From: a bacterium
GTDB lineage: Bacteria; UBA8248
Direction: 5' to 3'
NCBI GenBank assembly: GCA_965204535.1
Contig: CBDBEV010000001.1
Coordinates: 1,664,001-1,728,000, forward strand
DNA length: 64,000 bases
This document shows positions 26,368 to 57,211 of this stretch, in pieces. The first letter of the stretch is position 1, and every line of letters begins with the position of its first letter. Below the pieces are notes generated by a model, which was not told the DNA's origin, ran no database searches, and worked only from the letters and a program-made list of their open reading frames with translations. Position numbers and translations under genes: made by a program.

Positions 26368-26392
26368 GCAGCCCGCTGCGTGGGGTGTGAAA
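26368..26392 (+). other. Putative oriT 1 (MOB-F nic site)
   Basis: GCAGC-CC-GCTGC hairpin running into TGCGTGGGGTGT^G, the same core as the F-plasmid nic site. Confidence 0.75.
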
Positions 26393-26604
26393 CCCGAAGC
26401 GCCGAAGGGCGTCAGATTGCCGAATACGTGAGAACGAACGACGGGGGAACTTTCGCCGGAGAGAATGGCGGGCGGGAGCCGCCGCGGCGAGTGAGCGGAG
26501 AAGACGAGAGGAGAGCAACCAGGAGAGGAGCGGTGGAGTGATCGAGGAGAGAGGCGACGGGCCGCACCACCTGTGTGGCGATGCGACCCGCCGTGTCGAA
26601 CGTC

Positions 26605-27564
26605 CTATGCCGCGATTTTCTGGACGGGGATGCCGAGCGCTCTGGCCTTGTCGACGAGGTTGTCGGTGATGCCCGAACCGGGGAACGCGATCACACCCCT
26701 GGGGAGGAGGCTGAGCAGCTCGTCGTTGCGCCTGAAGGGAGCGGCCCTGCCGTGGGCGTCCCAGTCGGGCTTGCAGACGACCTGGTGGACGCCGTTCCGC
26801 TCGGCCCAGCCTGCCGCAATCTTCTCGGCGCCGGGGCCGCCGCCGTGGACGAGGACGACGTCGGCGTACTTGGCTTTCAGCTTGTCGAGCTGGCCGATGA
26901 TTTTGCCCGCGTCGGTGGCCTCCTTGCCGCCCGCGACGGCGACGAGCGTTCCCTGGGGGAGGTGGGCCGTGTTCTCGCGGTCCTTTTTCGCCCGCTGGAA
27001 GTCGCGCGCCTCGATCACCGCCGACGTGAGCTTGCCGGTCTGGCTGACGTGCGATCCTCGCCGGGGCCGCCAGACCTCGCCGGTCTCGACGCGGTAGGCC
27101 TCGGCGGCCGTGTCCCTGAGCCCTTCGAAGGCGTCGCGGCGGGCGGTGAGATTCTCGGCGCGGTCGGTGGCGAGTTCGAGTTCGCGAGACCTGATCTCGG
27201 AGCCGTCCTGCTCGCGCTGGAGTTCACGGATGCCGGGGATGAGTTTGTCGGCGGCGCGGTCGAGCCGCTGTGTCTGTGCGTCGAGGGTGTTGACGAAGCC
27301 CCACAGGAGACTCGCCCGCTCATCCGCGAGTTGAGTGCCGTCGGGTACTGCCTCGGCGAGCAGGTGGAATGCCTTGAGGACGGCGGCGGTGGACTCCGCC
27401 TCGCCCCAGACGGGCCGGTTGTCGAATTCGTCCGGCCCGGGGGTCGCGCCGAACAGGGCGGCCTGTTCGCAGACCATTGCGGTGAAGGATTCGTTCTGCG
27501 CTTCGATGTTGTCAACCTCGTGCATGATGCTCTCCTTGTGGTCGTGTGTCGCGGTGGCGGTCAT
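26605..27564 (-). CDS. DUF2493 / YspA-like SLOG domain protein (copy 1)
   Basis: VAVAGG, VLVHGGGPGAEKIAAGWA, PDWDAHGRAAPFRRND, IAFPGSG. Confidence 0.85.
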   Translation of the reverse strand: MTATATHDHKESIMHEVDNIEAQNESFTAMVCEQAALFGATPGPDEFDNRPVWGEAESTAAVLKAFHLLAEAVPDGTQLADERASLLWGFVNTLDAQTQRLDRAADKLIPGIRELQREQDGSEIRSRELELATDRAENLTARRDAFEGLRDTAAEAYRVETGEVWRPRRGSHVSQTGKLTSAVIEARDFQRAKKDRENTAHLPQGTLVAVAGGKEATDAGKIIGQLDKLKAKYADVVLVHGGGPGAEKIAAGWAERNGVHQVVCKPDWDAHGRAAPFRRNDELLSLLPRGVIAFPGSGITDNLVDKARALGIPVQKIAA

Positions 27565-27585
27565 CGTTCACTCCTTTCGTTGTCC

Positions 27586-27957
27586 TCAAGCGAGGGGATG
27601 GTCGTATTCCGGAAGAGCGTAGCCACGCTCGTTGCGCCCCACTTCTTTGGGCATCTCGTCGAGATACCTGGCGGCCCACTCGGCGGCGCGTGCGAGGACG
27701 TCGCCGTGACACGGGAGGGGATGGCAGTGGCAGCCGAGCTCGCAGCCTTGAAGGTCGGCGAGTTCGTAGAGGTCCTGCTCCTCGCGCCGGATTCTTTCCC
27801 ACAGCCATCGCCGGTATTTCTCGATCACCTCGGCGCGCTCGCCGTCCTGGCCGATGCGGAAGGGGTTTCCCCACTTCGTCATGCGGTCGATCCTGACCAG
27901 CAAGCCGCTGCCCATATCCGCCACATAGTTGTTCAGGTTCACCACGGTGGTTTCCAT
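27586..27957 (-). CDS. DUF4326 domain protein (copy 1)
   Basis: RIDR.TKWGNPF, YRRWL, LGCHCHPLPCHGDVL. Confidence 0.88.
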   Translation of the reverse strand: METTVVNLNNYVADMGSGLLVRIDRMTKWGNPFRIGQDGERAEVIEKYRRWLWERIRREEQDLYELADLQGCELGCHCHPLPCHGDVLARAAEWAARYLDEMPKEVGRNERGYALPEYDHPLA

Positions 27958-27993
27958 GCCTTTCTCCTTCGTAGAGAGTTAACGGATGCGCTT

Positions 27994-28182
27994 CTTAGCG
28001 CCCCATTTTCAGCACGTGCCAGGCGTGGGCGTCAGGGGCGGTTTTCAGTCTTTTTTCACCCGGAGGGCGCGCAGCGGAAAAAATCCACGCTTCACCGATT
28101 TTTTCTGAAAAAAGATGCTTTTGCGCTTTTTGCAAAAGCACCCTTGACCCCGCGCCGTGCGTGCTAAAATGGGGACGCTAAG
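27994..28182 (-). promoter_or_regulatory. Frpo-like single-stranded-DNA promoter hairpin (copy 1)
   Basis: Arms CTTAGCGCCCCATTTTCAGCACG and CGTGCTAAAATGGGGACGCTAAG pair; the distal arm carries TTGACC...TGCTAAAAT; lies just upstream of the DUF4326 RBS. Confidence 0.65.
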
Positions 28183-28477
28183 AGAGAGAGGGTAGTACCG
28201 CCACCGGGACACAAGAGCTTTTGGTGTTTCACGATGAAGGCGAAGCTCATCGGGAAACAGTCTCTCATGCTGCGGAAAGGGTCATTTCGGGCCGCATTTT
28301 CCGGCCCGAAATTCCCGCAGCGGGGGGTGGACCGAGCCACTATCCAGAACATGGGATGATTGCAGGAGCATGCCGAGCTTCCGGGAACACGGTTCATCGT
28401 TCACGGAACCGGAGATTTACCGGGTGGTCCCGGTAGCGGAGAGAGCCGGCAGGGCGGACCTTCTCTGGATAGCGAGC

Positions 28478-28513
28478 AAAAGAAAAGGGCTGACGCCGAA
28501 GCGCCAGCCCCTT
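28478..28513 (-). terminator. Intrinsic terminator after ssb (copy 1)
   Basis: GGGGCTGGCGC-TTCG-GCGTCAGCCCT followed by a T-rich tail. Confidence 0.8.
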
Positions 28514-28520
28514 GAAGCGC

Positions 28521-28967
28521 TCAAAATGGGATGTCTTCGCCCACTACGCCGGCGGTCGCCGCGACGTCCGCCGTCTCGGCGTGCGCGCCGTTTCCGTTGC
28601 CATTGCCGTTCCCGTTCACCTTGTCGAGGAACTGCACGCGCCCGCCCGGCGCGATGAGGATCTCGGTCGAGAACCGGTCCGAGTCCTCCTCGTCCTTCTT
28701 CCAGCGGCGGGTCTGGAGCTTGCCCGCGACGTAGACCAGGCGGCCCTTCTTCGCGTGCCGCTCGAGCATGTCCACCAGGCCGGGCTGGAAGGTGACGACC
28801 CGGTGCCATTCCGTCTTGTCCACCCGGTCGCCGGACTGCTTGTCGACGTAGCCCTCGTCGGTGGCGATGGATAGATTGGCCACGCGCCCCCCGCTCGTGA
28901 GGTGGTTGACGGTGACGTCGGCGCCGAGACGCCCGATCAGTTCCGCGCGGTTGAGTCCGAATGCCAT
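28521..28967 (-). CDS. ssb: Single-stranded DNA-binding protein
   Basis: LNRAELIGRLGAD, TEWHRVV, KGRLVYVAGKLQTR, C-terminal EDIPF; RBS AAGGAG. Confidence 0.95.
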   Translation of the reverse strand: MAFGLNRAELIGRLGADVTVNHLTSGGRVANLSIATDEGYVDKQSGDRVDKTEWHRVVTFQPGLVDMLERHAKKGRLVYVAGKLQTRRWKKDEEDSDRFSTEILIAPGGRVQFLDKVNGNGNGNGNGAHAETADVAATAGVVGEDIPF

Positions 28968-29046
28968 GGTGATTCTCCTTCGTGGTGTGAGTGAGAAAAA
29001 GTGACAGGAGGGAGAGAGCCTTTCTCTCCACCCCCCCCGGTTCGCC

Positions 29047-29187
29047 CTACACGCTATAAAACTCCTCCGCCTCGCCTTGCGCCTCGTCGCGGATCTTCCT
29101 GATCGTGTACGCGTCGAGTCCGAGTTCTGCGAGCAACTCGTCTGCGGTGGGAACATCGACGTCGAAGTCGTTCTCGTACATGGCCAT
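29047..29187 (-). CDS. Small acidic hypothetical protein (46 aa)
   Basis: AGGAGG RBS before ATG; MAMYENDFDVDVPTADELLAELGLD. Confidence 0.6.
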   Translation of the reverse strand: MAMYENDFDVDVPTADELLAELGLDAYTIRKIRDEAQGEAEEFYSV

Positions 29188-29367
29188 GCCTCCTGTCGGG
29201 GTTGTCGCCGGCAACGGGAGCTGGAGACCGTCTCCCTCTCCCCTGCCGGGCCTTTGCCCGGCTCCCCGCTTCGCTCCACCTCTCACGGTCAGGTTCACTG
29301 CCGATGAGGACCGCCCGCCGACCACGCCCGGACTTGCGCCTGCCTCGGGATTGGGGTCAGATGGGAC

Positions 29368-30702: not shown

Positions 30703-30723
30703 AGGACTTGGCGGGGACGGCGA

Positions 30724-31533
30724 CTACCAACCGGTCATGGACGCAATGAGCGGTGCGTCTTCGATGACTTCCACTTCCTCCCGGGAGAGCTTCTCGAATG
30801 CGAGGCACATCGCCACCTCCTCCCAGGAGTCCCAGGGTCCGTGCTCCTCGCCCGTGGCAAGTTCTATTACGGTGTAGCGCGGCGGATAGACGGGCATTCC
30901 CTTGTGCTCATCCGAGGAGTGATACGACCGACGCGCGCAGGGAGTACATCTCACCCCTGCGTCCGCATTGACACCGCAGTCGACGCAAAGTCCGAGGGCC
31001 CGCCTGTCGTGATAGCGCGCCCGGCTCGCGGCGTTCTTCTTCGTTGAACGGGACTGCTCGCGCGCGGCGCAGGCTTCGCACCTGGAAGCTCCTGCGAAGA
31101 CCTGTCCTCCGCACCGACCGCATCGCCCCCCGGCGCGCCTTTCGGCGTAGAGTTTCTTCTCGGCCGCGCGCCTCGCCTCTCGGCAAGGTTCGCAGACGGC
31201 GCCACCCTCTGCCGGAGGAAGCTCGCCGCAACGGGTGCACAACCCGGCTTCGGTGCGCTCGCGCCTGCGGCGTTTGCTCCTCTCCCGCGCCATGCGCCGG
31301 CGGCTCTCGGGGTTTCTCCCCCCGTAGGGATCCCCGGCAGCTTTCCGCCTCTCGTAGCGGGCGCGCTCGGACTTGCGGCTTTTTTCGAGGCAGACCTCGC
31401 AAAGACTTCGCCCGGACGCAGGGCGTCTGCGTCCGCATTTGATGCAAAGGCCTTGCGCGCGGCGTTCGGCGACGCGCCGCCTGTGGCGTTCGCGATCGAA
31501 CTTGCGCCTCGTCTCCGGGTCCTTGTGCGGCAT
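30724..31533 (-). CDS. Basic protein with four CxxC...CxxC Zn-binding repeats
   Basis: CIKC/CEVC, CTRC/CEPC, CGRC/CEAC, CVDC/CTPC separated by Arg-rich helices; GGAG RBS. Confidence 0.8.
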   Translation of the reverse strand: MPHKDPETRRKFDRERHRRRVAERRAQGLCIKCGRRRPASGRSLCEVCLEKSRKSERARYERRKAAGDPYGGRNPESRRRMARERSKRRRRERTEAGLCTRCGELPPAEGGAVCEPCREARRAAEKKLYAERRAGGRCGRCGGQVFAGASRCEACAAREQSRSTKKNAASRARYHDRRALGLCVDCGVNADAGVRCTPCARRSYHSSDEHKGMPVYPPRYTVIELATGEEHGPWDSWEEVAMCLAFEKLSREEVEVIEDAPLIASMTGW

Positions 31534-31622: not shown

Positions 31623-31919
31623 TCACCGGCACAGCATGCGGGCCCACACGAGGTGCTCGCCCCAGAGCTGAAGCCCGCTGCCGGGGACCCGGAGCCCCGT
31701 GCAGACGATGAGTTCATCTCGTGCGGGACGCATCTCGCAGACCGCCCGGCGTGAGGCGGTCACGCGTTTGCTCTTGCGTTTCCCACTCTCCCTGTCGGGC
31801 ACGGGCCTGATGTCGCCATCGGCGGACTTGTAGCGTTTCACTTCGTAGCGCTCATCCTCGAGGCCGCGTCCGAACAGGTGGGTGAGGAAGGTGCTCGCTT
31901 CGGGTTTGGGTTTTCGCAT
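31623..31919 (-). CDS. Small hypothetical protein
   Basis: 98-aa ORF with a GGGAG RBS, co-oriented with the Cys-rich gene. Confidence 0.45.
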   Translation of the reverse strand: MRKPKPEASTFLTHLFGRGLEDERYEVKRYKSADGDIRPVPDRESGKRKSKRVTASRRAVCEMRPARDELIVCTGLRVPGSGLQLWGEHLVWARMLCR

Positions 31920-32979
31920 CTCGTGAGTCTCCCTGTATTGGATGATTTGCGCGTAGCGGGGAAACGCCCTCTCCCAGACGCCCCTGCTCCGCCCCCTCCC
32001 GGCCGGACTCCGCCTCTTTCCAGCGCGAACCGCGCCGGAGGCCTTCTACGGGAAGGGGACGTCCGGGCCGTGATCGTGAAGCTCCTGCTGCTCCAGTTCG
32101 CGGCGCCAAGCATAGCGGCCGGTGCGTGACGACCACTCGAAGTGCTCGTCTTTCCCGTCGGGCAGTTCATAGCGATGAAAGGCGGACCAATCCCCACCCC
32201 GGGACCCCCGCCACAGGACGCACGATAGGGCCGTGAGGAGGCTCCAGAGGGCCGAACAGGCCCAGAACGGCCCCCACAAGGAGGCGGAGGCCGATGCCTG
32301 TCGCGAGAGAGAGGATTGTGGCGAGGAGCGCCAGGGCGGGTCCCGCCAGAACGAGAACCCGGGTGGATCGGGATGGATTCCGGTTCGTCATGGGTCGCGC
32401 CTCCGGTGCTGCAGGTGAGGGGAATGCGGGCGCCGCCCGGCCTCTCCGACCCGGCTCCCGCGCCCCCTCCCGTCCCGGCTCGGCTTCTCCGGGGCGAAAG
32501 GTATGGCGGAGGACAGCGTCGGAGAGACGATGACGCGACGGGGCATTGTTCGAGAGTGCCGCGTCGCTGGGGTTGGACGGCTTGCGCAGGTTGCTGTTGT
32601 GCGCGCGGGACCATCCTCGACCAAAGAGGAGAACTGTCGGCCAGATGGCGTCCGGACCCTGTAGGCGTCATGCTTTCAAGCAAGTGTTCATGAGCCGTCA
32701 GTGACGATGGCTGTCCGGACCCTAAACTTCATGGACGTCTCTTCCCTGTGGCGCTTTCGGTCATACTGAAAGCAAATTGTCCATGTTGAAGATGAGGTTT
32801 CGATTTATTTTCATGCATCATGCCGTTCTTTGCTGCGCGGAGGTGGAGAGAAACGCGGCTATGGCGAGTCTTTCGCAAGGGACGTATAGATATCCATTTT
32901 TAATAGAAATAATCGGAGTCTGAACGTGATATGTGTCTTCGGATTGTGGGGATAAGGATTTTTTCAGGAAAATAAAAAT

Positions 32980-33015
32980 TGCATTATATTTGCACTTTAT
33001 AAATGCATTATATTT
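32980..33015 (+). promoter_or_regulatory. Direct-repeat operator candidate upstream of the XRE regulator
   Basis: TGCATTATATTT at 32980 and 33004 in an AT-rich promoter region. Confidence 0.5.
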
Positions 33016-33063
33016 TGATACTCATTGTCATATTAATTAACCTTTGATAAATGGAGAACTGAA

Positions 33064-33996
33064 ATGCAGATAAATCACATCACCCTGAAGAAACTCCGTA
33101 AAGAGCAAGGCTACAGCCAGGAGGAGTTGGCAGAGATAGCGAAAATTTCCAAGAGAACGATAGCGGAAATTGAAGGCGGAAAAAAAGAAGTAGGGACACG
33201 CGGCTCCACGGTGAGACTGCTCGCTGAAGCTTTACGCGTCGAACCCGAAGTGCTGGGTCAAGAACCTGAATCCGATGCGGTAAGGGAGGTGGAGATCAGA
33301 AAATACGGCTTGCGATTTGCAAATCTCCCCCTCAAGGATGAAACGATACTCTCGTATGATTTGATCAAGGATCGCTATGGCGTCGAGATGGGGCAGATCG
33401 TCAATGCCGCGCCGTTTCTCTTCACCCTGCTCGCCGAGATGAGCTTGGCCGACCGCCGCCGTCGCCTAAAGGAAGCGGAGGAGGCGATGGACGCCTTCAA
33501 CAGGGTTTGCCCGGAACATATCACGGGACGCTATTGGGATGGCTTCTCTGAAAAAGATTCCATCGCCAGGAGAGACCTTTTCGCAACCTTCATAGACTCG
33601 ATGGAAGCCGACATGGGTTATTACTCGGAAGAGCGCAACCCGTTCACTGATTACCTCGTCCGATTGGCAGAGGAGCTGGGTCCCAACGACGCAATCGACC
33701 CCGAAGAAATCCATTTTGATGCGGATGGATATCTCGATTACGTCCCTCTTTTCGAGGAATATGTTAAAGGCCTTACGAGTGGATCTCGCCGCGCCGGGTA
33801 TGCCCTGTCTCGCGGATTCGCACGCATCAGCCAAATCCCGAAAGAACTGGTAGATGAAGAAGCCGCTTCTGAGCGCAAAAAATGGTTGGAATCGAAAATT
33901 TCAGATACTGAATATGCTGAATATGAAGATGAAAGAATTCGGATCGCACAATTACTCGAAGAGGTGTCAAGCAAGGGAGGTGCGGATGATGTATAG
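33064..33996 (+). CDS. XRE-family HTH protein with a large acidic C-terminal domain
   Basis: LKKLRKEQGYSQEELAEIAKISKRTIAEIEGG. Confidence 0.88.
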   Translation: MQINHITLKKLRKEQGYSQEELAEIAKISKRTIAEIEGGKKEVGTRGSTVRLLAEALRVEPEVLGQEPESDAVREVEIRKYGLRFANLPLKDETILSYDLIKDRYGVEMGQIVNAAPFLFTLLAEMSLADRRRRLKEAEEAMDAFNRVCPEHITGRYWDGFSEKDSIARRDLFATFIDSMEADMGYYSEERNPFTDYLVRLAEELGPNDAIDPEEIHFDADGYLDYVPLFEEYVKGLTSGSRRAGYALSRGFARISQIPKELVDEEAASERKKWLESKISDTEYAEYEDERIRIAQLLEEVSSKGGADDV

Positions 33997-34342
33997 AACC
34001 AGACACGCCGAAACCCGTATGCGCCAGAGGGGAGTCCGATGGGCGGATATCGAGTTGGTTCTGAACTGCGGGACACAGCTCGCCCCCGACGTTTGGTTCA
34101 TGAGAGATGTCGACGCGAGCCGCGAGATCGCCGACCTGAAGCGTACGTTCCGGCGGATTGAACGTACGTTGCAAAAAGGGAAGCAACGGCTCGAACGCGC
34201 CCTGAAACGTAGGATACAGCGGCTCGAACGTCTGAGGGGTCTCCAGGTCATCGTCGTGGGTGAGGCGGTTCTCACGAGCTACAGGCCCAGCCTTGCGCAT
34301 CAGCGGCGGGCGCGCCGCATGGGGAAAAGGGATCGCTTATGA
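33986..34342 (+). CDS. DUF4258-like small basic protein (possible toxin)
   Basis: TRHAETRMRQRGV...IELVL..G; GGAGG RBS; overlaps the XRE stop. Confidence 0.65.
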   Translation: MMYRTRHAETRMRQRGVRWADIELVLNCGTQLAPDVWFMRDVDASREIADLKRTFRRIERTLQKGKQRLERALKRRIQRLERLRGLQVIVVGEAVLTSYRPSLAHQRRARRMGKRDRL

Positions 34343-35325
34343 GTGGCGTGGCGAACCCGTTCGAGGAACTCTGCCGCCTCGCTTCCTTGAGCCGCTGGTG
34401 CCAGAATCCCGCCTGCACGACCTGCGGGAACCGTCACCTGAGCGTGGATCTGGCGCTCATCGCGCATGGCGTTCCGATCGCCGCGTGGGACCATACGAAG
34501 ACGAGATGGCCAAAGGAGTTGGTTCCGTGGACTCGGTGGACGCTAGGAGCCGCTGAATCCGCGCGTCTCGCTGAAACCCTCGGCGACGCTGATCTAGTGG
34601 CGATGGGAAAGAAATTCAGGTCGCCTCTACTGGACTGCTTGGAACTTGTTCTAGTCCGCTCGGGGCTGTCCGAGTCGGATCGGGATAAGGTCGAAAAGGC
34701 ATGGAGTGAACGGCAGGGACGAGAGAGCAGAATGGAAAAAGAACAACGGCGCTTGAGTCTTTTGGAAAGCATCAGGCAAAAGCATCCGGACCTTGTTAAA
34801 CGCGACATAAAAAACAGATTCGAGGAGCTTTGCCATCTGGCAGCCTCGAACAACTGGAACTGGAGTATACGAACTCCCAATCTTCACCTGCGCGCCGGCC
34901 TGCTGCTTATTGCGCGCAACATGCCGTTTGGTGAATGGGATTACACGAAAGACCGGTGGCCGGATGAATTGCTTCCGTCCGGCCGGGGCAGACTGATTCC
35001 TCTCGAGGATACCGAATCCGCAATTCTTGCCGAAGTACTCTGCGCCGCTGATTTGGTGGCGATAAGAAGGGATGCTGTATTCCGTTGGCTTGAATCATCA
35101 CGTGGTGGCATCCGGGAGTATTGGCTGGGCTACTTGGGAGTCGCCTTGCACCGCTCCCGGTTTTTACCGCCGCACCGCGAGCGGGTCGGGAAGTCATGGC
35201 GGGCTCAATTGAATCGCATGGCCGGAAGCAACACGCCATGTTCGACACCCGTCTCTTTTGAGGAGCTTAAGACTTACGAATGGCGTTTATCGCAAGAACC
35301 CATAGAGGAAATATACGGGATATGA
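34339..35325 (+). CDS. Hypothetical protein built from two homologous domains
   Basis: NPFEELCRLA...WDHTKTRWPKEL versus NRFEELCHLA...WDYTKDRWPDEL; ATGA overlap. Confidence 0.75.
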   Translation: MSGVANPFEELCRLASLSRWCQNPACTTCGNRHLSVDLALIAHGVPIAAWDHTKTRWPKELVPWTRWTLGAAESARLAETLGDADLVAMGKKFRSPLLDCLELVLVRSGLSESDRDKVEKAWSERQGRESRMEKEQRRLSLLESIRQKHPDLVKRDIKNRFEELCHLAASNNWNWSIRTPNLHLRAGLLLIARNMPFGEWDYTKDRWPDELLPSGRGRLIPLEDTESAILAEVLCAADLVAIRRDAVFRWLESSRGGIREYWLGYLGVALHRSRFLPPHRERVGKSWRAQLNRMAGSNTPCSTPVSFEELKTYEWRLSQEPIEEIYGI

Positions 35326-35464
35326 GTTTCACCGCTCTGTATGGAGACATCACTTGGGAGGGCGCGGAATACGTTCGCAGGAGCTGGTATAAATAGGTTT
35401 CCTACCCCTACGCCACGCCTCTCTTCCTTACGCTGTCCGCTGCTTTATCCCATGCGTCCAACCA

Positions 35465-36334: not shown

Positions 36335-36416
36335 TAGAGGAACTCATGATAGACAAGTGTAGCATTATCATAATTATCCAGTTGAATAACCATATTGCAA
36401 GATGTAGTGTTGCGCA

Positions 36417-36935: not shown

Positions 36936-36939
36936 ACGC

Positions 36940-37443: not shown

Positions 37444-37675
37444 AGCACATCCCCATTGCCGAAAAAATTTGTTCCTTTCGGCGCAGTTTCATTGTCTCGA
37501 GTGGTGGGGTGTGTTAAGCAGGGAGTCCAATCTGTTGGATGATGACTAACCCCACCATGCCGGAACCCTCGTTGGCGCGGGAGTTTCGGCGCATTTATAT
37601 TTCATTCCCTATTCGCAATTGTCGCACAGTCAACGGCGTATTCGATAAAATAGCAGATATTTCTGGGGTAAGTTA

Positions 37676-40600
37676 ATGGAGTCTTTCAAAAACACAACGC
37701 CCGATCCTAACTATGATGTGGCTGCTGCGCTCCTGGCGAACTTTGCGGCTGACGACATGCGCGAAATCAGAGGGATGGTCTTGCGTCTAGCGCGCGTGAG
37801 CAAGCGTCTTGAGAAATTCAGTTTTCCTCTAGTAGCTCAAAGTCTGGCCAGTTTGCTTATACGCCCCGAGAATCATACCGCCACCGCGCGAATTGAGGCA
37901 TTGATTCATCTGGCTGCGTTTGCCTGTCGAGGCGAAAAGGGACCGACACCAACCCAAGTGAGCGAATGGTTGAACGTCATGGTCTACAAGGATCCGATCA
38001 CGGAGCTTGAGGGCCCCGTAGAGGATGTCTTCGTTTCGAACGTTGCCACTTGGTTCGGAAATGTCCGGTTGTTTGAGGGGCGCTGGCAAAACAATGGGGA
38101 CTATATGCAGGCCTGCATCCTAGCGATGTACAGGGTCGCGGAACATTCGTGGGCAGCGGAAGCGTTTCGTTGCATCATGGCCTTGTTTCGGGTCAGCGAG
38201 GCTGTTGCTGAACGCGCCAAAGTTGATCGGTATTTACGCACGGAAAGCAGTCCGAGAGCAAAGATCGCACTAAATTTCTCAAATGCCACGGAAACCACTG
38301 GGTATGTGAGTTTCAGTCGCGAAGAGTTGATCGCCATCGGTGTCGATCCCGTAGATCTCGATCCCTTCGTGTTTCAGGAGGAACATGCAGACTTGCTCGT
38401 GGAACAGTCTATCGGGCATACGGCGTTGGAACGACGACCCTTGGTGAGATTAGGAGGCCGGACGATAGTTGTGCTACCTACTGCTATCGGCGCGGCGATC
38501 AGGCGATTTGTTATTGAACGTGCCGAAGCGGCAGGCGACCTAGACATATTCCAGTCAGCATGCCATCAGGCGCAATATGGCGAAGTCTTTCTGTTAGGCC
38601 GTGCGGCGTGGGAAATCGAATTCATCAAGGCGCTGCAACATGATCCCGACGACGATTTGAGGGAGTTCGTGGGAACTTTCGACGACGGCGGGTATGTCCA
38701 TCTTATCTTTGTTCCCGATGATTTTGGAGAAATAGCCCGGGATGGATTTGTAAGCACTCACAAGCTCAAGGGCATGATCAAGGACCGAATCCATGATCGG
38801 GCGGCCTACCTAGCGGCCAAGCCAGACTATCGCCGGGGATTGACCGTGCTGGTTCATGGTGGCATTGGTCGCGAGTTTTCCCCGCCTTGGGGAGAGCTTC
38901 CAAGCGGTTGGCATCAACTGTGTTTGTCCGCACCTGACTTCATGCTCCTGGGAAATGAATCCGAGTTTACGGCCCTGCGTGCCTGGAAATTGCTTCAACA
39001 GGTGGACGATCTGGAAGCAAAAGGCGTCGTCTTTCCGAACCTGCGCGGGTTTTTAAACTTGGCGGCTTTCGCTTACTACGGCGACTTTGAACTCGTACCA
39101 GTGAATATGAGCCTCGCTCCAATCTATCTGCACAGCGACTTTATTTTGCCTCTACGCCACAGAGTGCGAACTGCTCTCGACCAGCACGCAGTGTTGGCTC
39201 CCGATGGCAAGTCATGGGTCAGCGTCCAGCGTGAGACGACGAGCGGCTTCCTCGGCCAAACGCAAGGAAGACCGGTTTTCATCAATCCTGGGTATATGGC
39301 TCAACACAAACTTCTGGCATGTGTCGAAACCAACGCACGGCCGTGGTGGGTTCATTGTAGTGAGTTACCGGAGTCCAGATGGCATCGTGGCATGGTGTTC
39401 AACATTCTGGAGTTGGTTCTCGGCTGGCTGGTTCGCTTGAGTCCATTGCTTGAAGAATGGATATGCTCGTTGCCATCGGGACCTGTCACTTTCCAGTTCC
39501 GGTTTCCAGACATAGAGATTTTGAGTCAAAACGATATACAGACGACGAAAACGCCTTCAGCGCCAACGGTTGCGGTTGAAGATGGGCAGATCGTAATCGA
39601 CTGCACGCTGCTCTATCTTCGGAGTTTCCTGAGCGCTGCCAATACGGGTGACCGCTTAATGATTAGTGCAATGATGCGAGGCGTGCATGAGCTTTGCGGC
39701 AATCTGGCACCCTCAGATACCGAAATGGGAGAATTGGTGCAAACCGTGGTGGGTTCGGAAGACGCACGATTCTTCCAAATGACTCCCGGCAGAACACCCC
39801 AGGATATGATCTATGACGTAGCTGCGCTTCCAATGCCGCGCTTGGTGATGCCGGAGGATCAAGCATGGAGTCGCCTCGACCTCGTACGTAGGGCGGGATA
39901 TGAGGCCGCACCAGGCCCTATTCCATTGGGCAAGGCCCAAGCGACCCTTGGAAAGGCGGTGGATTGTGTTTGGGAGCGCGCCAGGTCTCGATTGAGCAAC
40001 TTGAACCGGGAAAGCGTGATAGAAAGTTCTCTTCTGAATTTCATGGCTATCCAGAAGGAACACAGGGATTGGCTCCGTTCAGCGGCGGCGCAGCTTGCGC
40101 TCCACGACAATGACGAGGTGCTGGCGGCCGCAAACGAACGTGGCTTTCGACGGGATATTGCTGGTCTGTCTTGCCGTGTCATTTCAGAGATGGCGTTGTG
40201 CACATCGCCCTATCAGGACGATTCTTCCTGCACAGGAGCGGACTTGGACTTCCTGATAGCAGAGGTTGCGACGCTTCTGGAATGTGCCAGTCATAGTGAT
40301 GCACTGCGCTACTGCCTGGCGGCAGGACAACCAAGCATGCTCCCCAACGGATCTTTCGATTTCGATCCTTCGACAGTTCAGGCGATAAAACAACTTCTGA
40401 ATGAATATGGCAAGCGAACATTTCAAGATGCAGCGCTTGAGCGCGGCACCGAATTTGGAGGTGGAGACGAAGTTGCAGATGCGGACTTCGAAGCGGCGTT
40501 TATCGCCGAGTTTGGGCTAAGCATGGATCAATATGGGAAGTTCGTTCTTGATGTAACACTGGAAGCCCTGGAACATGGCGAAGCTCTCTTTCAGCTTCGA

Positions 40601-41404
40601 AGAAGTGAGGTGATTCAGCGGCTACGAGAGGTAGGCACTATGAATCCGGAGCGGGTTTTCGAGGCATTCGCCCTCAAGCCTAGGGCGCGGTGGGATGAGA
40701 AAAATCCGACAAACGCCAAAGAAAGAGACTGGTACCCTTGGCGGTACAACAGGCGTCTGTCGATTCTGCGGCGCCCTCTCGTGCAATTATCGATGGAGGA
40801 CGACCCGGTCGTGCTCGTGATGCCGTCGATTCTTGGAGGCACACTGGATTACTTGCAGCAAGCGTCATTTGGCCGACTGCCCGTAGAACTTTTTGACAAC
40901 CCCGAGATGGCTTCGTGCATCGGGCGTGCGGCTGACAGGAACGGACGTGATTTCAACCGAAGGGTTGCCGAGCGATTTGACCACCTGGAATGGAAGACAG
41001 AGCAGGAAGTAGCTCTCACCCGGCTCGGTGGCGCGGTGGAACTCGGCGATATTGACGTCCTCGCATGGCGGTGCGACACAGGACTTGTCTACGTAGTCGA
41101 GTGCAAGAGTCTCCGGTTCGATCGCACCTGTGGTGAGATCGGGGAACGTCTGGCGGAATATGCTACCGGCACCGTTGACGGTAAGCGCACTCCATTACAG
41201 AAGCATCTCGACCGTATTTCATATCTCGAAGGCAACAGGGAACGGCTCTCACATCTTACGGACATCTCTCTTGAGAAGTTACAATTGCGCTCGGCACTGG
41301 TCACCGAGAAGCTTGTTCCAATGCAATTTACCGGAAGAGCTCGGGAGATGTTGAACATTGTTACGGACTATGAGTTGCTTGAGGAAGTAATTGTAAATCA
41401 GTGA
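37676..41404 (+). CDS. Large protein with a C-terminal PD-(D/E)XK-like nuclease motif
   Basis: 1242 aa; GRDFN...GDIDVLAW...VVECKSL. Confidence 0.75.
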   Translation: MESFKNTTPDPNYDVAAALLANFAADDMREIRGMVLRLARVSKRLEKFSFPLVAQSLASLLIRPENHTATARIEALIHLAAFACRGEKGPTPTQVSEWLNVMVYKDPITELEGPVEDVFVSNVATWFGNVRLFEGRWQNNGDYMQACILAMYRVAEHSWAAEAFRCIMALFRVSEAVAERAKVDRYLRTESSPRAKIALNFSNATETTGYVSFSREELIAIGVDPVDLDPFVFQEEHADLLVEQSIGHTALERRPLVRLGGRTIVVLPTAIGAAIRRFVIERAEAAGDLDIFQSACHQAQYGEVFLLGRAAWEIEFIKALQHDPDDDLREFVGTFDDGGYVHLIFVPDDFGEIARDGFVSTHKLKGMIKDRIHDRAAYLAAKPDYRRGLTVLVHGGIGREFSPPWGELPSGWHQLCLSAPDFMLLGNESEFTALRAWKLLQQVDDLEAKGVVFPNLRGFLNLAAFAYYGDFELVPVNMSLAPIYLHSDFILPLRHRVRTALDQHAVLAPDGKSWVSVQRETTSGFLGQTQGRPVFINPGYMAQHKLLACVETNARPWWVHCSELPESRWHRGMVFNILELVLGWLVRLSPLLEEWICSLPSGPVTFQFRFPDIEILSQNDIQTTKTPSAPTVAVEDGQIVIDCTLLYLRSFLSAANTGDRLMISAMMRGVHELCGNLAPSDTEMGELVQTVVGSEDARFFQMTPGRTPQDMIYDVAALPMPRLVMPEDQAWSRLDLVRRAGYEAAPGPIPLGKAQATLGKAVDCVWERARSRLSNLNRESVIESSLLNFMAIQKEHRDWLRSAAAQLALHDNDEVLAAANERGFRRDIAGLSCRVISEMALCTSPYQDDSSCTGADLDFLIAEVATLLECASHSDALRYCLAAGQPSMLPNGSFDFDPSTVQAIKQLLNEYGKRTFQDAALERGTEFGGGDEVADADFEAAFIAEFGLSMDQYGKFVLDVTLEALEHGEALFQLRRSEVIQRLREVGTMNPERVFEAFALKPRARWDEKNPTNAKERDWYPWRYNRRLSILRRPLVQLSMEDDPVVLVMPSILGGTLDYLQQASFGRLPVELFDNPEMASCIGRAADRNGRDFNRRVAERFDHLEWKTEQEVALTRLGGAVELGDIDVLAWRCDTGLVYVVECKSLRFDRTCGEIGERLAEYATGTVDGKRTPLQKHLDRISYLEGNRERLSHLTDISLEKLQLRSALVTEKLVPMQFTGRAREMLNIVTDYELLEEVIVNQ

Positions 41405-42005
41405 TTGTAGTCGTCTGCACTTGGGAGGTGTACCCGAATGAACATCGCGGTTGCAGAAAAACGTTTATTCCGTTGCGCCGTGGTGTGGTGATTCCTGCGC
41501 CTTGCGGATGTCTTTGACGAGTCCGTCCAAGGTTTCACCTCATTTTCCCTGGGTCATGCATTTGCATGGAATTCATTCCGGGGGCGCTCACCCGGGCGGT
41601 TAGGTACAGCGAGATTGCGCCCCGTCGCGCTCTTTGCGAACATGCATGCTAGCATGCGGTTCTCTTCCGGGAACAAAATATGGAAGTCCGGTATCGCGCG
41701 GTTTGTGCAAGAGGCGCTTGTGAAGGCGCTCCAGAGCGTTCTCGCGAGGGGGAAATGCTTTAGTGCCCGAGATTTGACGAGCACTCGATCGGGAGCCGGA
41801 CGGCGCTGCGGCTTCCGGTAAATTCTTGCACATAGGCTGCCGGGGGGTGTCAGGCGGCGACGGAATTACGGCTTTCATGCGGTGTTGCTATAGTGTTGAT
41901 TCGATGTCGGATTGAATGATCGATCATATCTCCATCCATGCAACTTATTGTAATAAATTCGCTTACACAATACCCTCTGCAGGAAATTCCCTAGATAGCC
42001 AAATC

Positions 42006-42350
42006 GCCAACCTGTCCATCGCCACGGACGAGGGCTACGTCGACAAGCAGTCCGGCGAGCGGGTGGACAAGACCGAGTGGCACCGGGTCGTCACCTTCCA
42101 GCCCGGGCTGGTCGACATGTTCGAGAAGCACGCGAAGAAGGGCCGCCTGGTCTACATCGCGGGCAAGCTGCAGACCCGCCGCTGGAAGAAGGACGAGGAG
42201 GACTCCGATCGGTTCTCGACCGAGATACTCATCGCGCCTGGCGGGCGCATTCAGTTCCTCGACAAGGTGAACGGGAACGGCAATGGCAACGGCGCGCACG
42301 CCGAGGCGACGGTGCCCGCAGGCGTAGCCGGGGACGACATCCCGTTCTAG
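42006..42350 (+). pseudogene. ssb: 5'-truncated ssb
   Basis: Homology starts abruptly at ANLSIATDEG; the first ~29 codons are replaced by unrelated AT-rich DNA; ends DDIPF. Confidence 0.85.
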
Positions 42351-42356
42351 GCTCAG

Positions 42357-42392
42357 AAGGGGTCGGCGCTTCGGCGTCGGCCCCTTTTTCTT
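42357..42392 (+). terminator. Intrinsic terminator after ssb (copy 2)
   Basis: GGGGTCGGCGC-TTCG-GCGTCGGCCCC-TTTTT. Confidence 0.8.
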
Positions 42393-42689
42393 TGCTCCTT
42401 ATCCAGAGGAGGTCCGCTCTGTCGGTCCTCTCATCTACCGGGAACACCCGGTCAATCCTCCGGTTCCGTGAACGATGAACCGTGTTCCCGGAAGATCGGC
42501 TTGCACCTGCAATCATCCCATAATTCCAGACAGTGGCTCGGTCCACCCCCCGCTGCGGGAATTTCGGGCCGGAAAAACGGCCCGAAATGACCCTTTCCGC
42601 AGCATGAGAGATTGTTTCCCGATGAGCTTCGCCTTCATCGTGAAACACCAAAAGCTCTTGTGTCCCGGTGGCGGTACTACCCTCTCTCT

Positions 42690-42878
42690 CTTAGCGCTCC
42701 CATTTTAGCACGCACGGCGCGGGGTCAAGGGTGCTTTTGCAAAAAACGCAAAAGCATCTTTTTTCAGAAAAAATCGGTGAAACGTGGATTTTTTCCGCTG
42801 CGCGCCCTCCGGGTGAAAAAAGACTGAAAACCGCCCCTGACGCCCACGCCTAGCACGTGCTGAAAATGGGACGCTAAG
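42690..42878 (+). promoter_or_regulatory. Frpo-like single-stranded-DNA promoter hairpin (copy 2)
   Basis: CTTAGCGCTCCCATTTTAGCACG pairs with CGTGCTGAAAATGGGACGCTAAG; inner hairpin TGCTTTTGC/GCAAAAGCA. Confidence 0.65.
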
Positions 42879-42914
42879 AAGCGCATCCGTTAACTCTCTG
42901 GAAAGGAGAAAGGC

Positions 42915-43289
42915 ATGGAAACCACCGTGGTGAACCTGAACGACTACGTTGCTCCCCAGTTCGGAGGCGGCTTGCTGGTCAGGATCGACCGGGCGACGAA
43001 GTGGGGAAACCCCTTCCGGGTCGGCAAGGACGGCTCCCGCAGCGAGGTCATCGAGAAATACCGGCGATGGCTGTGGGGAAAAATCCAGCGCGAGGAGCAG
43101 GACCTCCATGAACTCGCCGACCTGCAAGGCTGCGAGCTCGGCTGCCACTGCCATCCCCTGCCGTGCCACGGCGACGTACTCGCGCGTGCCGCCGAGTGGG
43201 CAGCCAGGTATCTCGACGAGATGCCGAAAGAAGTGGGGCGCAACGAGCGTGGCTACGCTCTTCCCGAATTCAACCATCCCCTCGCTTGA
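42915..43289 (+). CDS. DUF4326 domain protein (copy 2)
   Basis: TKWGNPF, LGCHCHPLPCHGDVL; AAGGAG RBS. Confidence 0.88.
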   Translation: METTVVNLNDYVAPQFGGGLLVRIDRATKWGNPFRVGKDGSRSEVIEKYRRWLWGKIQREEQDLHELADLQGCELGCHCHPLPCHGDVLARAAEWAARYLDEMPKEVGRNERGYALPEFNHPLA

Positions 43290-43310
43290 GGACAACGAAA
43301 GGAGTGAACG

Positions 43311-44264
43311 ATGACCGCCACCGAGACACACAAGGAGATGATCATGCACGAGGTTGACACCATCGAAGCGCAGAACGAATCCTTCACCGCCATGGTATGC
43401 GAACAGGCAGCACTCTTCGGCGCGACCCCCGGCCCCGACGAGTTCGACAACCGGCCCGTCTGGGGCGAGGCGGAGTCCACCGCCGCCGTCCTCAAGGCCT
43501 TCGGCGCACTCGCGGAAGCCGCACCCGACGGAACGCAACTCGCGGATGAGCGGGCGAGCCTCCTGTGGGGCTTCGTCAACACCCTCGACGCCCAGACCCA
43601 GCGCCTCGACCGCGCCGCCGACAAGCTCATCCCCGGCATCCGTGAAATGCAGCGCGAGCAGGACGGCTCCGAGATCAGGTCCCGCGAACTTGAACTCGCC
43701 ACCGATCGGGCCGAGAATCTCACCGCCCGCCGCGACGCCTTCGAGGTGCTGCGCGACACGGCCGCCGAGGCCTACCGCGTCGAGACCGGCGAGGTATGGC
43801 GGCCCAGGCGAGGATCGCACGTCTCACAGACCGGCAAGCTCACATCGGCGGTGATCGAGGCGCGGGACTTCCAGCGCGCGAGAAAGGACCGCGAGAACAC
43901 CGCCCACCTCCCCCAGGGAACCCTCGTCGCCGTCGCGGGCGGCAAGGAAGCCACCGACGCCGGCAGGATCATCGGCCAGCTCGACAAGCTGAAAGCCAAG
44001 TACGCCGACGTCGTCCTCGTCCACGGCGGCGGCCCGGGTGCGGAGAAGGTTGCAGCCGGCTGGGCCGAGCGCAACGGCGTCCACCAGGTCGTCTGCAAGC
44101 CCGACTGGGACGCCCACGGCAGGGCCGCTCCCTTCAGGCGCAACGACGAGTTGCTCTCCCTCCTCCCCAGGGGCGTGATCGCGTTCCCGGGTTCGGGCAT
44201 CACCGACAACCTCGTCGACAAGGCCCGAAGCCTGGGCATCCCCGTTCAACGCGTGGCCGCCTGA
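43311..44264 (+). CDS. DUF2493 / YspA-like SLOG domain protein (copy 2)
   Basis: Near-identical protein to 26605-27564. Confidence 0.85.
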   Translation: MTATETHKEMIMHEVDTIEAQNESFTAMVCEQAALFGATPGPDEFDNRPVWGEAESTAAVLKAFGALAEAAPDGTQLADERASLLWGFVNTLDAQTQRLDRAADKLIPGIREMQREQDGSEIRSRELELATDRAENLTARRDAFEVLRDTAAEAYRVETGEVWRPRRGSHVSQTGKLTSAVIEARDFQRARKDRENTAHLPQGTLVAVAGGKEATDAGRIIGQLDKLKAKYADVVLVHGGGPGAEKVAAGWAERNGVHQVVCKPDWDAHGRAAPFRRNDELLSLLPRGVIAFPGSGITDNLVDKARSLGIPVQRVAA

Positions 44265-44302
44265 TGTGAACACTCCTCGGGTCGCGTCGTCGTCGCCCGG
44301 CG

Positions 44303-46084
44303 GAGACTGTGAGAGTATTGGATTTCACAGTCTCCGGAACAGGGCTCGCTTACGCTTGCAGCCCGATGGCCGGACACTGTCTTCAACTTCGGGAGCAACA
44401 ACACCGCAGAGCCGGGAGAGAAACGTCTCGGCGGCCGGTCAGCTCGGGGTCGCGGTCAAGTCCTCGAAGAATCGGCTTCAAGTTCACACGCCATTCGTCC
44501 CCAACCGCTGTTTTTGCAGACAATGCTCCACAAATGCAGCTCCGCCCAGCACACGCATGACCCGCTTGAAGTTGTAACCCAGCGTCATCAGGCTGAATTC
44601 GCCGCGGCATTTGCCGAGTCCGCGCATCACAAAATGATCCATCCCCGCCCAGCGCTTGATCGTACCGAATGGATGTTCGACGAGTGTGCTTCGCCCGCGC
44701 ATCAATGGCACACGGGCGTTCATCTTCTTGCGATGCCGGTCCACCACGTCCTCATGCTCCCAGCGTTGTATCCTGCGCGTCGATCTCGACTTTGTCAGGC
44801 ATCGGCCCGACAACGAACAGTCCCGGCAAACCGCCGCCGTCCCGCGATAAAAGTAATACAGCCTGCCCCTGACGGTGGTCGTGCCGCCTCGAACCAGACG
44901 CTCTCCGGCCGGACAGACATACGTGTCATCCTGCGCATCGTAACGGAATTCATCGCTGCCGAATCGTCCGTCCTTGCCCTTGCGGGCCGTCTGGTTCGGT
45001 ATCGGAACATACACCTCCATTCCCTTGTCTTCGCAACTCTTCAACTGTGCGCCGTTGAAGTAGCCCGAATCCGCCAGGCCGACCAGGCGTTCGCTGCCCA
45101 TGGCTTCGCCGGCTTTCGTCATCATCGGCTCCAACTGAGCGGAGTCATTGCCGTCCTGCACCACATCCTCCGCGACAATCAGCTTGTGCTTGTCGTCCAC
45201 CGCGATCTGGCAGTTGTATCCGCCCACCATTATATCGCCGTTCCTCAGAAGTCGAGCATCTGCATCGACCCCCGATACCTGACGCTCTCCGCTTTCCTGC
45301 AAATGCTCTTGCAGTGCCTTCTTCTTTTGTTGCCTCTCGATCAAGGCCTTGAGCTTCACCGGCAGGTCCGGATCCTCCGAACCGTCCCCACACTCCTCCC
45401 CGCGCGCATCCGCCTCGTCCAACTGCCGGTGATACGCCGCAATCCTCTTCTCCAAACGCCTCAGGTCCCTTGCCAGGGACCGCTTGGTTTGGAAGCTGTC
45501 CAGGTTCGCATCGGCCTTCAAAAAAGTCCCGTCGACCGCCACCCGGCTGCCGCCCAGCAGCGAGAGTTCGCGGCACAGCAGCACGAACTCCCGGTTGGCC
45601 TCCTGCAGCGCAGCCACATTGTTCTTGCGAAAATCCGCAATCGTCTTGTAGCTCGGCGTCGCACCCTGGCACAGCCAGATCACTTCCAGATTGCGCCGCG
45701 TCTCCGCTTCGAGACGGCGCGAACTCCGTACCCGGTGCTGGTAGCCGTACAGATACAGCTTCAGCAGCAGCGCCGGGTCGAAAGCCGGCTGACCGGCGCC
45801 GCAGTTCGCTTCGGCATGCGCGAACCCCAGCGCCTCCAGGTCCAGCGTGCCGACGAACGCATCGATCGCGCGCACCGCATTGTGCTCGGACACGTAGTCG
45901 TCCAGACACGGCGGAAGCAGCATCATCTGGCTTCGGGACTGCACCTCCTGATAACGTCTCTCGGACATGGTGGTGACCCTTTATGTGGTTATCTCACTCA
46001 CCGGTAAAGATAGCATGTACAGACAACCCGGGCATCGCTCGCCAGCGTCACCCACCAGAATCGTGGGAATACTTTCACAGTCTC
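44303..46084 (-). mobile_element. IS1182-family insertion sequence
   Basis: Terminal IRs GAGACTGTGAGAGTATT / AATACTTTCACAGTCTC; flanking direct repeat CGTCGCCCGGCG at 44291-44302 and 46085-46096. Confidence 0.9.
44484..45968 (-). CDS. IS1182-family DDE transposase
   Basis: LLKLYLYGY, SSRRLE, TIADFRK, VDGTFLKA, GYNCQIAVD, ADSGY, VEHPFGTIK. Confidence 0.95.
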   Translation of the reverse strand: MSERRYQEVQSRSQMMLLPPCLDDYVSEHNAVRAIDAFVGTLDLEALGFAHAEANCGAGQPAFDPALLLKLYLYGYQHRVRSSRRLEAETRRNLEVIWLCQGATPSYKTIADFRKNNVAALQEANREFVLLCRELSLLGGSRVAVDGTFLKADANLDSFQTKRSLARDLRRLEKRIAAYHRQLDEADARGEECGDGSEDPDLPVKLKALIERQQKKKALQEHLQESGERQVSGVDADARLLRNGDIMVGGYNCQIAVDDKHKLIVAEDVVQDGNDSAQLEPMMTKAGEAMGSERLVGLADSGYFNGAQLKSCEDKGMEVYVPIPNQTARKGKDGRFGSDEFRYDAQDDTYVCPAGERLVRGGTTTVRGRLYYFYRGTAAVCRDCSLSGRCLTKSRSTRRIQRWEHEDVVDRHRKKMNARVPLMRGRSTLVEHPFGTIKRWAGMDHFVMRGLGKCRGEFSLMTLGYNFKRVMRVLGGAAFVEHCLQKQRLGTNGV

Positions 46085-46246
46085 CGTCGCCCGGCGGCGG
46101 CGCGGCCCGTCGCTTCTCCTGATTGCTCCGCTCGCCTCCTCCCGCTCACTCGCCGCGGCGGCTTCCGCTCGCCATCCTCTCCGGCGAAAATTCCCCTGTC
46201 GTTCGTTCCCAAGAATCCGCCGTTAGCCGCCCTTCGGCGCTTCGGA

Positions 46247-46272
46247 TTTCACACCGGACGCATCGCTGATGC
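46247..46272 (-). other. Putative oriT 2 (variant MOB-F nic site)
   Basis: Minus strand GCATC-AGC-GATGC hairpin running into TGCGTCCGGTGT^GAAA, at the position equivalent to oriT 1. Confidence 0.65.
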
Positions 46273-52136: not shown

Positions 52137-52152
52137 CGTCCGGACCATTCTC

Positions 52153-57197: not shown

Positions 57198-57211
57198 CCT
57201 CTACTCCTCCT

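What the first reader, a model, noticed from the sequence alone, without database searches (positions are those of the whole stretch)
26368..46272. Two opposed MOB-F oriT sites with different nic cores, each paired with a different RHH gene
Seen: oriT 1 (+ strand) is GCAGC-CC-GCTGC-GTGGGGTGT^GAAA; oriT 2 (- strand) is GCATC-AGC-GATGC-GTCCGGTGT^GAAA. The hairpin arms co-vary, homology stops just past the hairpin, and the adjacent RHH proteins are strongly diverged. Known: F nic is TGCGTGGGGTGT^GG preceded by an inverted repeat. Only one relaxase and no mating-pair genes are in the window. Inference: two specificity variants, mobilised by different relaxases or defining alternative transferable sub-segments.
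Basis: partly seen in the sequence, partly recalled or inferred. Interest (0 to 1): 0.7.

Follow-up and report, generated by a model that had tools for sequence, protein, structure and literature searches.

The report
Island with two opposed transfer origins
A 72-kb defence-gene island carries two F-plasmid-like DNA-transfer start sites facing each other, taken from two sub-lineages of one large family of mobile elements, so it would likely be exportable either by its own nicking enzyme or by those of two complete conjugative elements elsewhere in the same genome.

Summary
Both sites are real. Each is the core of a whole module, RHH gene – hairpin+nic – SLOG/DUF4326/SSB block, and homology runs 150 bp (then 2.3 kb) past the nick. 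They lie in one 71.7-kb att-bounded island that two relatives lack at this site. The genome holds 14 such sites, 8 TrwC relaxases and two F-type conjugation operons; 98 sites were parsed in 18 genomes. Site 1 (GG core, RHH1) goes with the window's own relaxase clade (GG in 23 of 25). Site 2 (CC core, RHH2, TACCA-N3-TGGTA repeats) belongs to the other clade, which both co-resident ICEs carry. Facing pairs recur (10 of 13 close pairs, none divergent), most likely as chimeras of sibling elements. Opposite strands exclude a start/stop pair for a sub-segment. Against a strict two-key model: the second relaxase clade sits with eight different cores including GG, and 3 of 10 facing pairs share one core. 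No nicking, excision or transfer was shown. Dual-oriT elements are known; this family and its graded oriT/RHH/relaxase subtypes were not found in my searches.

The parts
15..25 (+). Left attachment core ATTTATCGAAA; the right copy lies beyond the window at G000:C2:1735702-1735712 (window-equivalent 71,702-71,712)
   Evidence: Empty site in G011 (L052) and G002 (L051): left flank and right flank join with this overlap
252..2629 (+). Two tandem tyrosine integrases (Arm-DNA-bind_3 + Phage_integrase)
   Evidence: 12 such pairs in the genome
5509..6045 (+). Stranded piece of a leading-block gene, paralogous (72%) to 30775-31311; oriented like the block beside site 2
9405..11489 (+). TraD/TrwB-type coupling protein
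11486..14395 (+). MobF relaxase-helicase, 'Q-type' clade (motif QKLIGM, aligned to F TraI 193-198)
21417..25229 (-). Cargo: Dsr2-like Sir2 defence protein
25691..26074 (-). RHH1, NikA-like ribbon-helix-helix protein read away from site 1
   Evidence: Pfam NikA-like 26 bits, just under the 27 cut-off; family profile and model both rank NikA 2ba3 first
26272..26282 (+). Palindrome TTACG-T-CGTAA, 117 nt before the predicted nick; candidate RHH1 site (weak: 4 of 17 RHH1 sites)
26368..26388 (+). oriT1 hairpin + GG core; predicted nick after 26388, + strand transferred rightwards
   Evidence: last 12 nt identical to the F oligonucleotide in PMC3074121
26389..26526 (+). Conserved first-entering 140 nt with a near-invariant CGCC-N4-GGCG hairpin
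26605..29279 (-). Leading block 1: YAcAr SLOG (26605-27564), DUF4326 (27586-27957), SSB (28521-29279), all read towards oriT1
37676..41404 (+). Cargo between the two leading blocks: Upx-like defence protein
42004..44264 (+). Leading block 2: 5'-truncated SSB (to 42350), DUF4326 copy (42915-43289), YAcAr SLOG (43311-44264), read towards oriT2
44303..46084 (-). IS1182-family element inserted 167 nt past the predicted nick of oriT2, with target duplication
46115..46250 (-). Conserved first-entering stretch of oriT2
46251..46272 (-). oriT2 hairpin + CC core; predicted nick after 46251, - strand transferred leftwards
46355..46497 (-). Three TACCA-N3-TGGTA palindromes (117, 204 and 247 nt before the nick); candidate RHH2 sites
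   Evidence: present at 53 of 60 RHH2 sites and 1 of 17 RHH1 sites
46629..46970 (+). RHH2, NikA-like protein read away from site 2 (ORF open from 46545; homologues start near 46629)
47368..62878 (.). Cargo: type II MTase with HATPase partner, HmaC and two HmaB paralogues (HmaA lies just beyond the window)

Best explanation
The window holds most of a 71.7-kb att-bounded island with a relaxase and coupling protein but no mating-pair genes, and its two opposed sites are likely transfer origins of two sub-lineages of one MOB-F/F-type ICE family, likely joined by recombination between sibling elements. Predicted working: the integrase pair excises the island as a circle. RHH1 and the island's own Q-type relaxase would nick oriT1 and export the + strand; RHH2 with a K-type relaxase supplied in trans by a co-resident ICE would nick oriT2 and export the - strand. 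Either route would move the whole circle through a borrowed F-type channel, with a SLOG-DUF4326-SSB block entering first. Specificity is likely asymmetric: Q-type relaxases would read the GG core strictly, K-type ones would tolerate several cores and rely on RHH2 and its upstream repeats. Shown: anatomy, boundaries, copy number, co-variation, helper operons. Inferred: nick position, protein-DNA pairing, excision, transfer.
For: Empty site in 2 of 5 relatives examined. Polarity is constant: wherever detected among 98 sites, RHH reads away and SLOG reads towards the nick, matching the leading-region orientation in PMC11541004 (passages). All 16 of 41 genomes with TrwC also have the site; 2 have the site alone; 23 have neither. 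In 80 relaxase loci from a GTDB scan, 29 have the hairpin+core within 10 kb and all 29 are on the relaxase coding strand; 24 of them come from other taxa. Core by relaxase clade: Q-type GG in 23 of 25 assigned, K-type GG in 5 of 48; 2 changes on 1.66 against 19 on 4.54 substitutions per site. Core by RHH in the genus: RHH1 GG 9 of 9, RHH3 TCC 8 of 9, RHH2 CC 23 of 49. Two F-type tra operons in G000 (C2 ~570-592 kb and ~1,503-1,526 kb), each ending in TraD and a K-type relaxase; the second carries a CC/RHH2 site whose upstream 330 bp is 77% identical to oriT2's and shows no match to oriT1's. Unitigs of 9.7-10.2 kb with no differences span 32394-42056 in three runs from two samples; the longest (31824-42056) joins the two modules.
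Against: The Q-type clade arose once (monophyletic) and at least ten alignment columns track GG equally well, so the link may be shared descent. K-type relaxases sit with eight cores; four identical relaxase domains in G030 sit with CA, CA, CG and GG. The more complete-looking ICE of G000 pairs a K-type relaxase with a recombinant GG/RHH2 site. 3 of 10 facing pairs have the same core. The block beside oriT2 is damaged (truncated SSB, IS1182). Relaxase-site pairing is by nearest same-strand site within 45 kb and can be wrong. No excised-circle or empty-site joint was seen in three runs' contigs (contigs drop rare forms). In the CC-type ICE no TraN or TraF hit was found at the expected place, so it may be defective.
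Confidence: 0.6

Rival explanations
1. Both are true oriTs but functionally one specificity: the two variable bases are tolerated by any family relaxase, and oriT2 is a passive relic of a recombination between sibling islands, with no second route under selection.
For: Seven cores among 98 sites, freely combined with hairpin types. Identical relaxase domains with different cores. 3 of 10 facing pairs share a core. In F, a 5' hairpin lets TraI join R100-type and G144'C substrates (PMC3074121 passages). Decay beside oriT2. RHH2 modules mostly lie antiparallel to the integrase and RHH1/RHH3 modules parallel in G000, so chimeras come out facing without selection.
Against: GG stays fixed across the Q-type clade, which spans several phyla (8 of 9 outside the class). 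RHH type and upstream repeats track the core. oriT2, its three repeats and RHH2 are intact.
Confidence: 0.27
2. The inverted 2.3-kb paralogous blocks matter as recombination arms that flip the 13-kb cargo between them; the oriTs are bystanders.
For: 91% identical inverted blocks. One opposite-strand joint 28362/42510 in contigs of two runs.
Against: A dozen paralogous blocks in the genome explain such a joint equally well; no dedicated invertase nearby; the oriT anatomy is conserved in single-copy elements.
Confidence: 0.05
3. The pair is an assembly chimera of two paralogous islands.
For: Metagenome-derived genome, 5.26% contamination, many near-identical repeats.
Against: A 10.2-kb unitig bridges the internal join, and 9.7-kb unitigs of two further runs cover nearly the same stretch without differences; both outer flanks match one empty site; the same architecture occurs in five other genomes.
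Confidence: 0.04
4. The two sites are a start and a stop for transfer of the 20-kb segment between them.
For: They bracket a defined segment; F TraI does terminate at a second short oriT (PMC3074121 passages).
Against: They are on opposite strands, so a relaxase moving along one transferred strand meets only the complement of the other site (established rolling-circle logic).
Confidence: 0.02

Closest known systems
F plasmid oriT/TraI and its R100 variant (MOB-F; PMC3074121 and PMC2504302, passages read)
   Same: Hairpin GCA...TGC directly before the core; oriT1's last 12 nt equal F's; the bases equivalent to G144', G142' and T141' are kept; the base after the nick is G (67) or A (31) of 98, and G140'A transfers at 1.0 in F; F and R100 also differ by two bases in this core.
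   Different: 5-bp stem instead of 8; variation is at -7/-6 (F/R100: -7/-5); chromosomal islands; relaxase gene is on the transferred strand; accessory protein is NikA-like.
R388 TrwA-TrwB-TrwC module
   Same: Best solved-structure match of the relaxase domain (1omh, E 5e-63); short relaxase-helicase plus coupling protein; RHH accessory protein beside oriT (TrwA role recalled).
   Different: Core is F-like, the mating-pair system is F-type, and oriT lies 4-40 kb from the relaxase.
ICEclc and R6K, elements with two oriTs (PMC6561031 passages; bioRxiv 10.64898/2026.01.13.699239 section 6, which reports one oriT in 85% of islands that have any)
   Same: Two origins in one mobile element.
   Different: ICEclc's two origins serve one relaxase in a self-transmissible element; here each origin has its own RHH and leading block and matches a different relaxase clade.
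pWBG749-family oriT subtypes with SmpO (PMC8136818, abstract only)
   Same: oriT subtypes paired with divergent accessory proteins; hitch-hikers matching co-resident helpers.
   Different: There the accessory factor alone sets specificity; here the nic core and the relaxase clade also vary; different MOB class and phylum.
IMEs carrying defence cargo, e.g. PIMEs (bioRxiv 10.64898/2026.01.12.698999, abstract and outline)
   Same: att-bounded, helper-dependent, rich in anti-phage systems.
   Different: PIMEs use IncP helpers; this island has a MOB-F relaxase, tandem integrases and sibling F-type ICEs as likely helpers.

Membership tests
MOB-F oriT (F/R388 type) | Inverted repeat immediately 5' of the nic core | tested here: met
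   97.9% of cells paired, 45 double-sided changes, 0 of 500 shuffles as high, slid controls 1-13
MOB-F oriT (F/R388 type) | Core with the G(-4), G(-2), T(-1) triad | tested here: met
   Invariant in 86 of 86 aligned, but the parsing pattern favoured it; 3 of 6 unparsed profile hits change the -2 base
MOB-F oriT (F/R388 type) | Linked MobF relaxase with catalytic tyrosines and histidine triad | tested here: met
   NF041492 297.6 bits over cut-off 100; YY-x5-YY and H...HTH present; strand-linked in 29 of 29 loci with the motif
MOB-F oriT (F/R388 type) | Adjacent RHH accessory gene read away from nic | tested here: inconclusive
   Position and direction met; RHH fold likely but scores are weak: Pfam under cut-off, profile E 4e-4 to NikA, Foldseek E 0.22 with probability 0.97; binding untested
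MOB-F oriT (F/R388 type) | Cleavage at nic and mobilisation in cis | not testable with these tools
   needs bench work
Integrative mobilisable element | Integrase, att repeats and an empty site in relatives | tested here: met
Integrative mobilisable element | Relaxase/oriT without own mating-pair genes, helper available | tested here: met
   none among the island ORFs scanned; two F-type operons elsewhere in G000
Integrative mobilisable element | Excision to a circle | tested here: inconclusive
   no attP or attB loose end listed in contigs of three runs
ICEclc-type dual oriT | Both origins processed by the element's own relaxase | not testable with these tools
   co-variation points the other way
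pWBG749-type oriT subtypes | Accessory protein sets subtype through its own upstream sites | tested here: inconclusive
   TACCA-N3-TGGTA at 53 of 60 RHH2, 1 of 17 RHH1, 5 of 9 RHH3 sites; core differs as well
Initiation/termination oriT pair | Both sites on the same strand in direct orientation | tested here: not met
   + at 26368 and - at 46272

The most novel reading that the evidence does not exclude
A cross-phylum family of F-type ICEs and their truncated islands runs a two-tier key system: a strict Q-type relaxase lineage that reads only the F-identical GG core and a permissive K-type lineage steered by its RHH protein. Facing double-origin islands are selected master-key hitch-hikers that can leave with whichever helper is present, and the many natural core/relaxase/RHH combinations give a ready code for how MOB-F relaxases change target specificity.
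Probability: 0.3. Interest if true: 0.65.

Novelty: new variant of a known kind. Interest (0 to 1): 0.42.

Why it matters
How relaxases diversify their nic specificity is known mainly from the F/R100 pair. Here one genome holds three oriT/RHH/relaxase subtypes, natural recombinants between them and the helper operons, and about 120 sites across several phyla give matched natural variants. That makes 'strict versus permissive reader' and 'relaxase versus RHH as the key' directly testable with short oligonucleotides. It also suggests how phage-defence islands move between unrelated taxa in sponge-type communities. The dual-oriT arrangement by itself is not new.

Tried and rejected
Rfam at gathering scores: no match in the window. 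RNAalifold consensus on 86 sites gave a structure with no covarying pair, so a structured RNA reading was dropped; the second hairpin (CGCC-N4-GGCG) hardly varies and is neither supported nor refuted. tRNA target: none in the window. The motif CG(T/A)TTTGAT(T/G)AC, first taken as the att core, proved sub-terminal once the empty site was aligned. PF03135 found no VirB4 in 41 genomes, which wrongly suggested no helper; PF11130 found F-type TraC over cut-off in 10 of 41. Excision joints: none listed. Plasmid collection: best relaxase match 47% identity. Harley and Schildbach 2003 was not held, so the F/R100 switch residues 193 and 201 are recalled; PMC7826260 passages confirm only that a double mutant switches specificity. 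Sponge-metagenome run X4 covered only the paralogous blocks (13 of 30 bins), so it shows relatives, not this island. Literature searches (listings only unless cited) showed no description of this family; subscription journals and bioRxiv supplements were not searchable. Earlier-findings look-ups by place and sequence were empty. Protein homologue, cluster, atlas and complex-prediction tools were not used.
Full report
Observation. A hairpin-plus-core pattern finds only these two in the window and none in 40 simulated 64-kb sequences. The statement that homology stops at the hairpin is true upstream only. Downstream it continues at 83% over 153 bp, and beyond an IS1182 next to site 2 an inverted 2,266-bp block is 91% identical. 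That block encodes a YAcAr SLOG protein, DUF4326 and SSB. Each site is thus the centre of a module: RHH gene read away, intergenic region, hairpin and core, then three genes read back towards the core.

The element. The window begins at the left end of an island. Two relatives of five examined, G011 and G002, have the flanks joined, with an overlap at ATTTATCGAAA (window 15-25 and G000:C2:1735702-1735712), giving 71.7 kb; G020 has another insertion at the same place. Inside are two tandem tyrosine integrases, a TraD-type coupling protein, a MobF relaxase-helicase and defence cargo (Dsr2-like, Upx-like, Hma, a methyltransferase). No att-associated motif scored between the two sites. Unitigs of 9.7-10.2 kb from three runs (two samples, one study, one possibly the source) match 32394-42056 without differences, and the longest, 31824-42056, joins module 1's distal part to module 2.

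A family. G000 has 14 parsed sites, 8 TrwC relaxases (two in a near-identical duplicated island) and 12 integrase pairs. Among 41 genomes, 18 have the site and 16 have TrwC, all 16 among the 18. From the loci I fetched (most but not all matches) a profile gave 105 hits; 99 parsed, 6 did not, 1 mis-parsed row was dropped, leaving 98. Cores between TGCGT and GGTGT were GG 30, CC 29, TCC 15, CG 10, CA 8, CT 5, TA 1. The hairpin is held by compensatory change. A GTDB scan kept the best 80 of 185 relaxase loci, titled as Alpha- and Gammaproteobacteria, Gemmatimonadetes, Acidobacteria, Binatia, Nitrospinota and others at 64-97% identity. In 29 of 80 the motif lies within 10 kb, always on the relaxase coding strand. 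Related sequence occurs in sponge metagenome runs.

Why oriT. The last 12 bases of site 1 equal the F oligonucleotide printed in PMC3074121 (passages). The bases that PMC2504302 shows to be critical in F (G144', G142', T141') are kept, and the base after the nick is G or A, both tolerated in F (passages); my parsing favoured that core, and 3 of the 6 unparsed hits change the -2 base. Genes 3' of the nick read towards it wherever detected, the orientation reported for leading-region genes in PMC11541004 (passages). The small proteins rank NikA first by profile and by fold, with weak scores.

Specificity. I paired each of 56 class-level relaxases with the nearest same-strand site within 45 kb (49 assigned) and added 24 loci from other taxa. 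One clade, containing the window's enzyme, has QKLIGM where the others have KM(L/V)xGA; the Q aligns with F TraI residue 193, which I recall as one of the F/R100 switch residues (paper not held). Q-type: GG in 23 of 25 assigned. K-type: GG in 5 of 48, with seven other cores. In the genus RHH1 goes with GG 9 of 9, RHH3 with TCC 8 of 9, RHH2 with CC 23 of 49. TACCA-N3-TGGTA repeats mark 53 of 60 RHH2 sites and 1 of 17 RHH1 sites; oriT2 has three, oriT1 none. Against over-reading: the Q clade arose once, many columns track GG equally, four identical G030 domains sit with three different cores, and one G000 ICE has a K-type relaxase with a site that is RHH2-type distally and oriT1-type proximally, crossing over at the shared 12-bp box. 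The pattern fits a strict Q reader and a permissive K reader better than two exclusive keys.

Helpers. PF03135 found nothing, but F-type TraC is over cut-off in 10 of 41 genomes, twice in G000. Both G000 loci are tra operons ending in TraD and a K-type relaxase; one shows TraE, B, V, C, W, U, TrbC, N, F, H, G, the other lacks TraN and TraF hits. The second carries a CC/RHH2 site like oriT2.

Why opposed. Among neighbouring sites within 40 kb, 10 of 13 face each other, 3 are tandem, none diverge (binomial 1.3e-4 against random orientation, overstated because kin are not independent); core pairs differ from case to case and 3 of 10 share a core. In G000, RHH2 modules lie antiparallel to the island's integrase direction in 7 of 8 distinct islands and RHH1/RHH3 modules parallel in 3 of 3 (read), so a left half of one kind joined to a right half of the other gives a facing pair. 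In the window a piece of the RHH2-type leading block is stranded at 5509-6045 and the SSB at 42004 is cut at its 5' end, as if an RHH1-type module had been set into an RHH2-type element; G000:C1 826-921 kb shows a similar layout. This origin is inferred. Opposite strands rule out a start/stop pair.

Mechanism, stated with its basis. Shown: boundaries, modules, co-variation, helpers. Inferred: excision by the integrase pair; nicking of oriT1 in cis and oriT2 in trans; export of the whole circle in either direction through a sibling's F-type channel. No excision joint was listed in contigs of three runs, a weak test.

Novelty. Elements with two oriTs (ICEclc, R6K) and oriT subtypes set by accessory proteins (pWBG749) are in print. 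Eight searches showed no account of this family or of facing origins with separate RHH and leading blocks. I rate it a new variant of a known kind, interest 0.42: ordinary in kind, useful as a natural series for relaxase specificity.

Noticed in passing
window 44303-46084 and seven sibling islands in G000: An IS1182-family element has 14 copies identical over 1,560 nt; 8 sit between an oriT and its SLOG gene, in both orientations and, by eye, at seven different points of one GC-rich hairpin region. It was not found at the sites of other genomes. A target hotspot in the first-entering DNA.
   Followed up: partly
G000:C1 183-221 kb and G000:C2 end/start: About 30 kb of one island occur twice at 99.6-99.9% identity with different flanks: a very recent copy or an assembly duplication.
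   Followed up: partly
window 57212-59995 and 60062-62878: Two tandem HmaB methylase paralogues (78-84% nucleotide identity in two blocks, divergent between) in one Hma system; possibly two target specificities.
   Followed up: no
G000:C2:1733066-1733157 (L031) and G000:C1:919698-919781: ARAGORN calls long tRNA-like genes with a GCG anticodon near the right end of both double-oriT islands.
   Followed up: no
window 190 and 31 or more other places in G000: A sub-terminal motif ending in CG(T/A)TTTGAT(T/G)AC lies about 170 bp inside the left end and 110 bp inside the right end of islands, often several per island; candidate integrase arm sites marking accreted segments.
   Followed up: partly
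G000:C2:618407 region: A natural recombinant oriT: RHH2-type distal half, oriT1-type proximal half, crossover at the shared 12-bp box, inside the more complete F-type ICE.
   Followed up: partly
window 14763-16088: A DinB/IMS-family polymerase gene lies just after the relaxase.
   Followed up: no
L031:6600-7199: Reverse-transcriptase fragment just inside the right end of the island.
   Followed up: no
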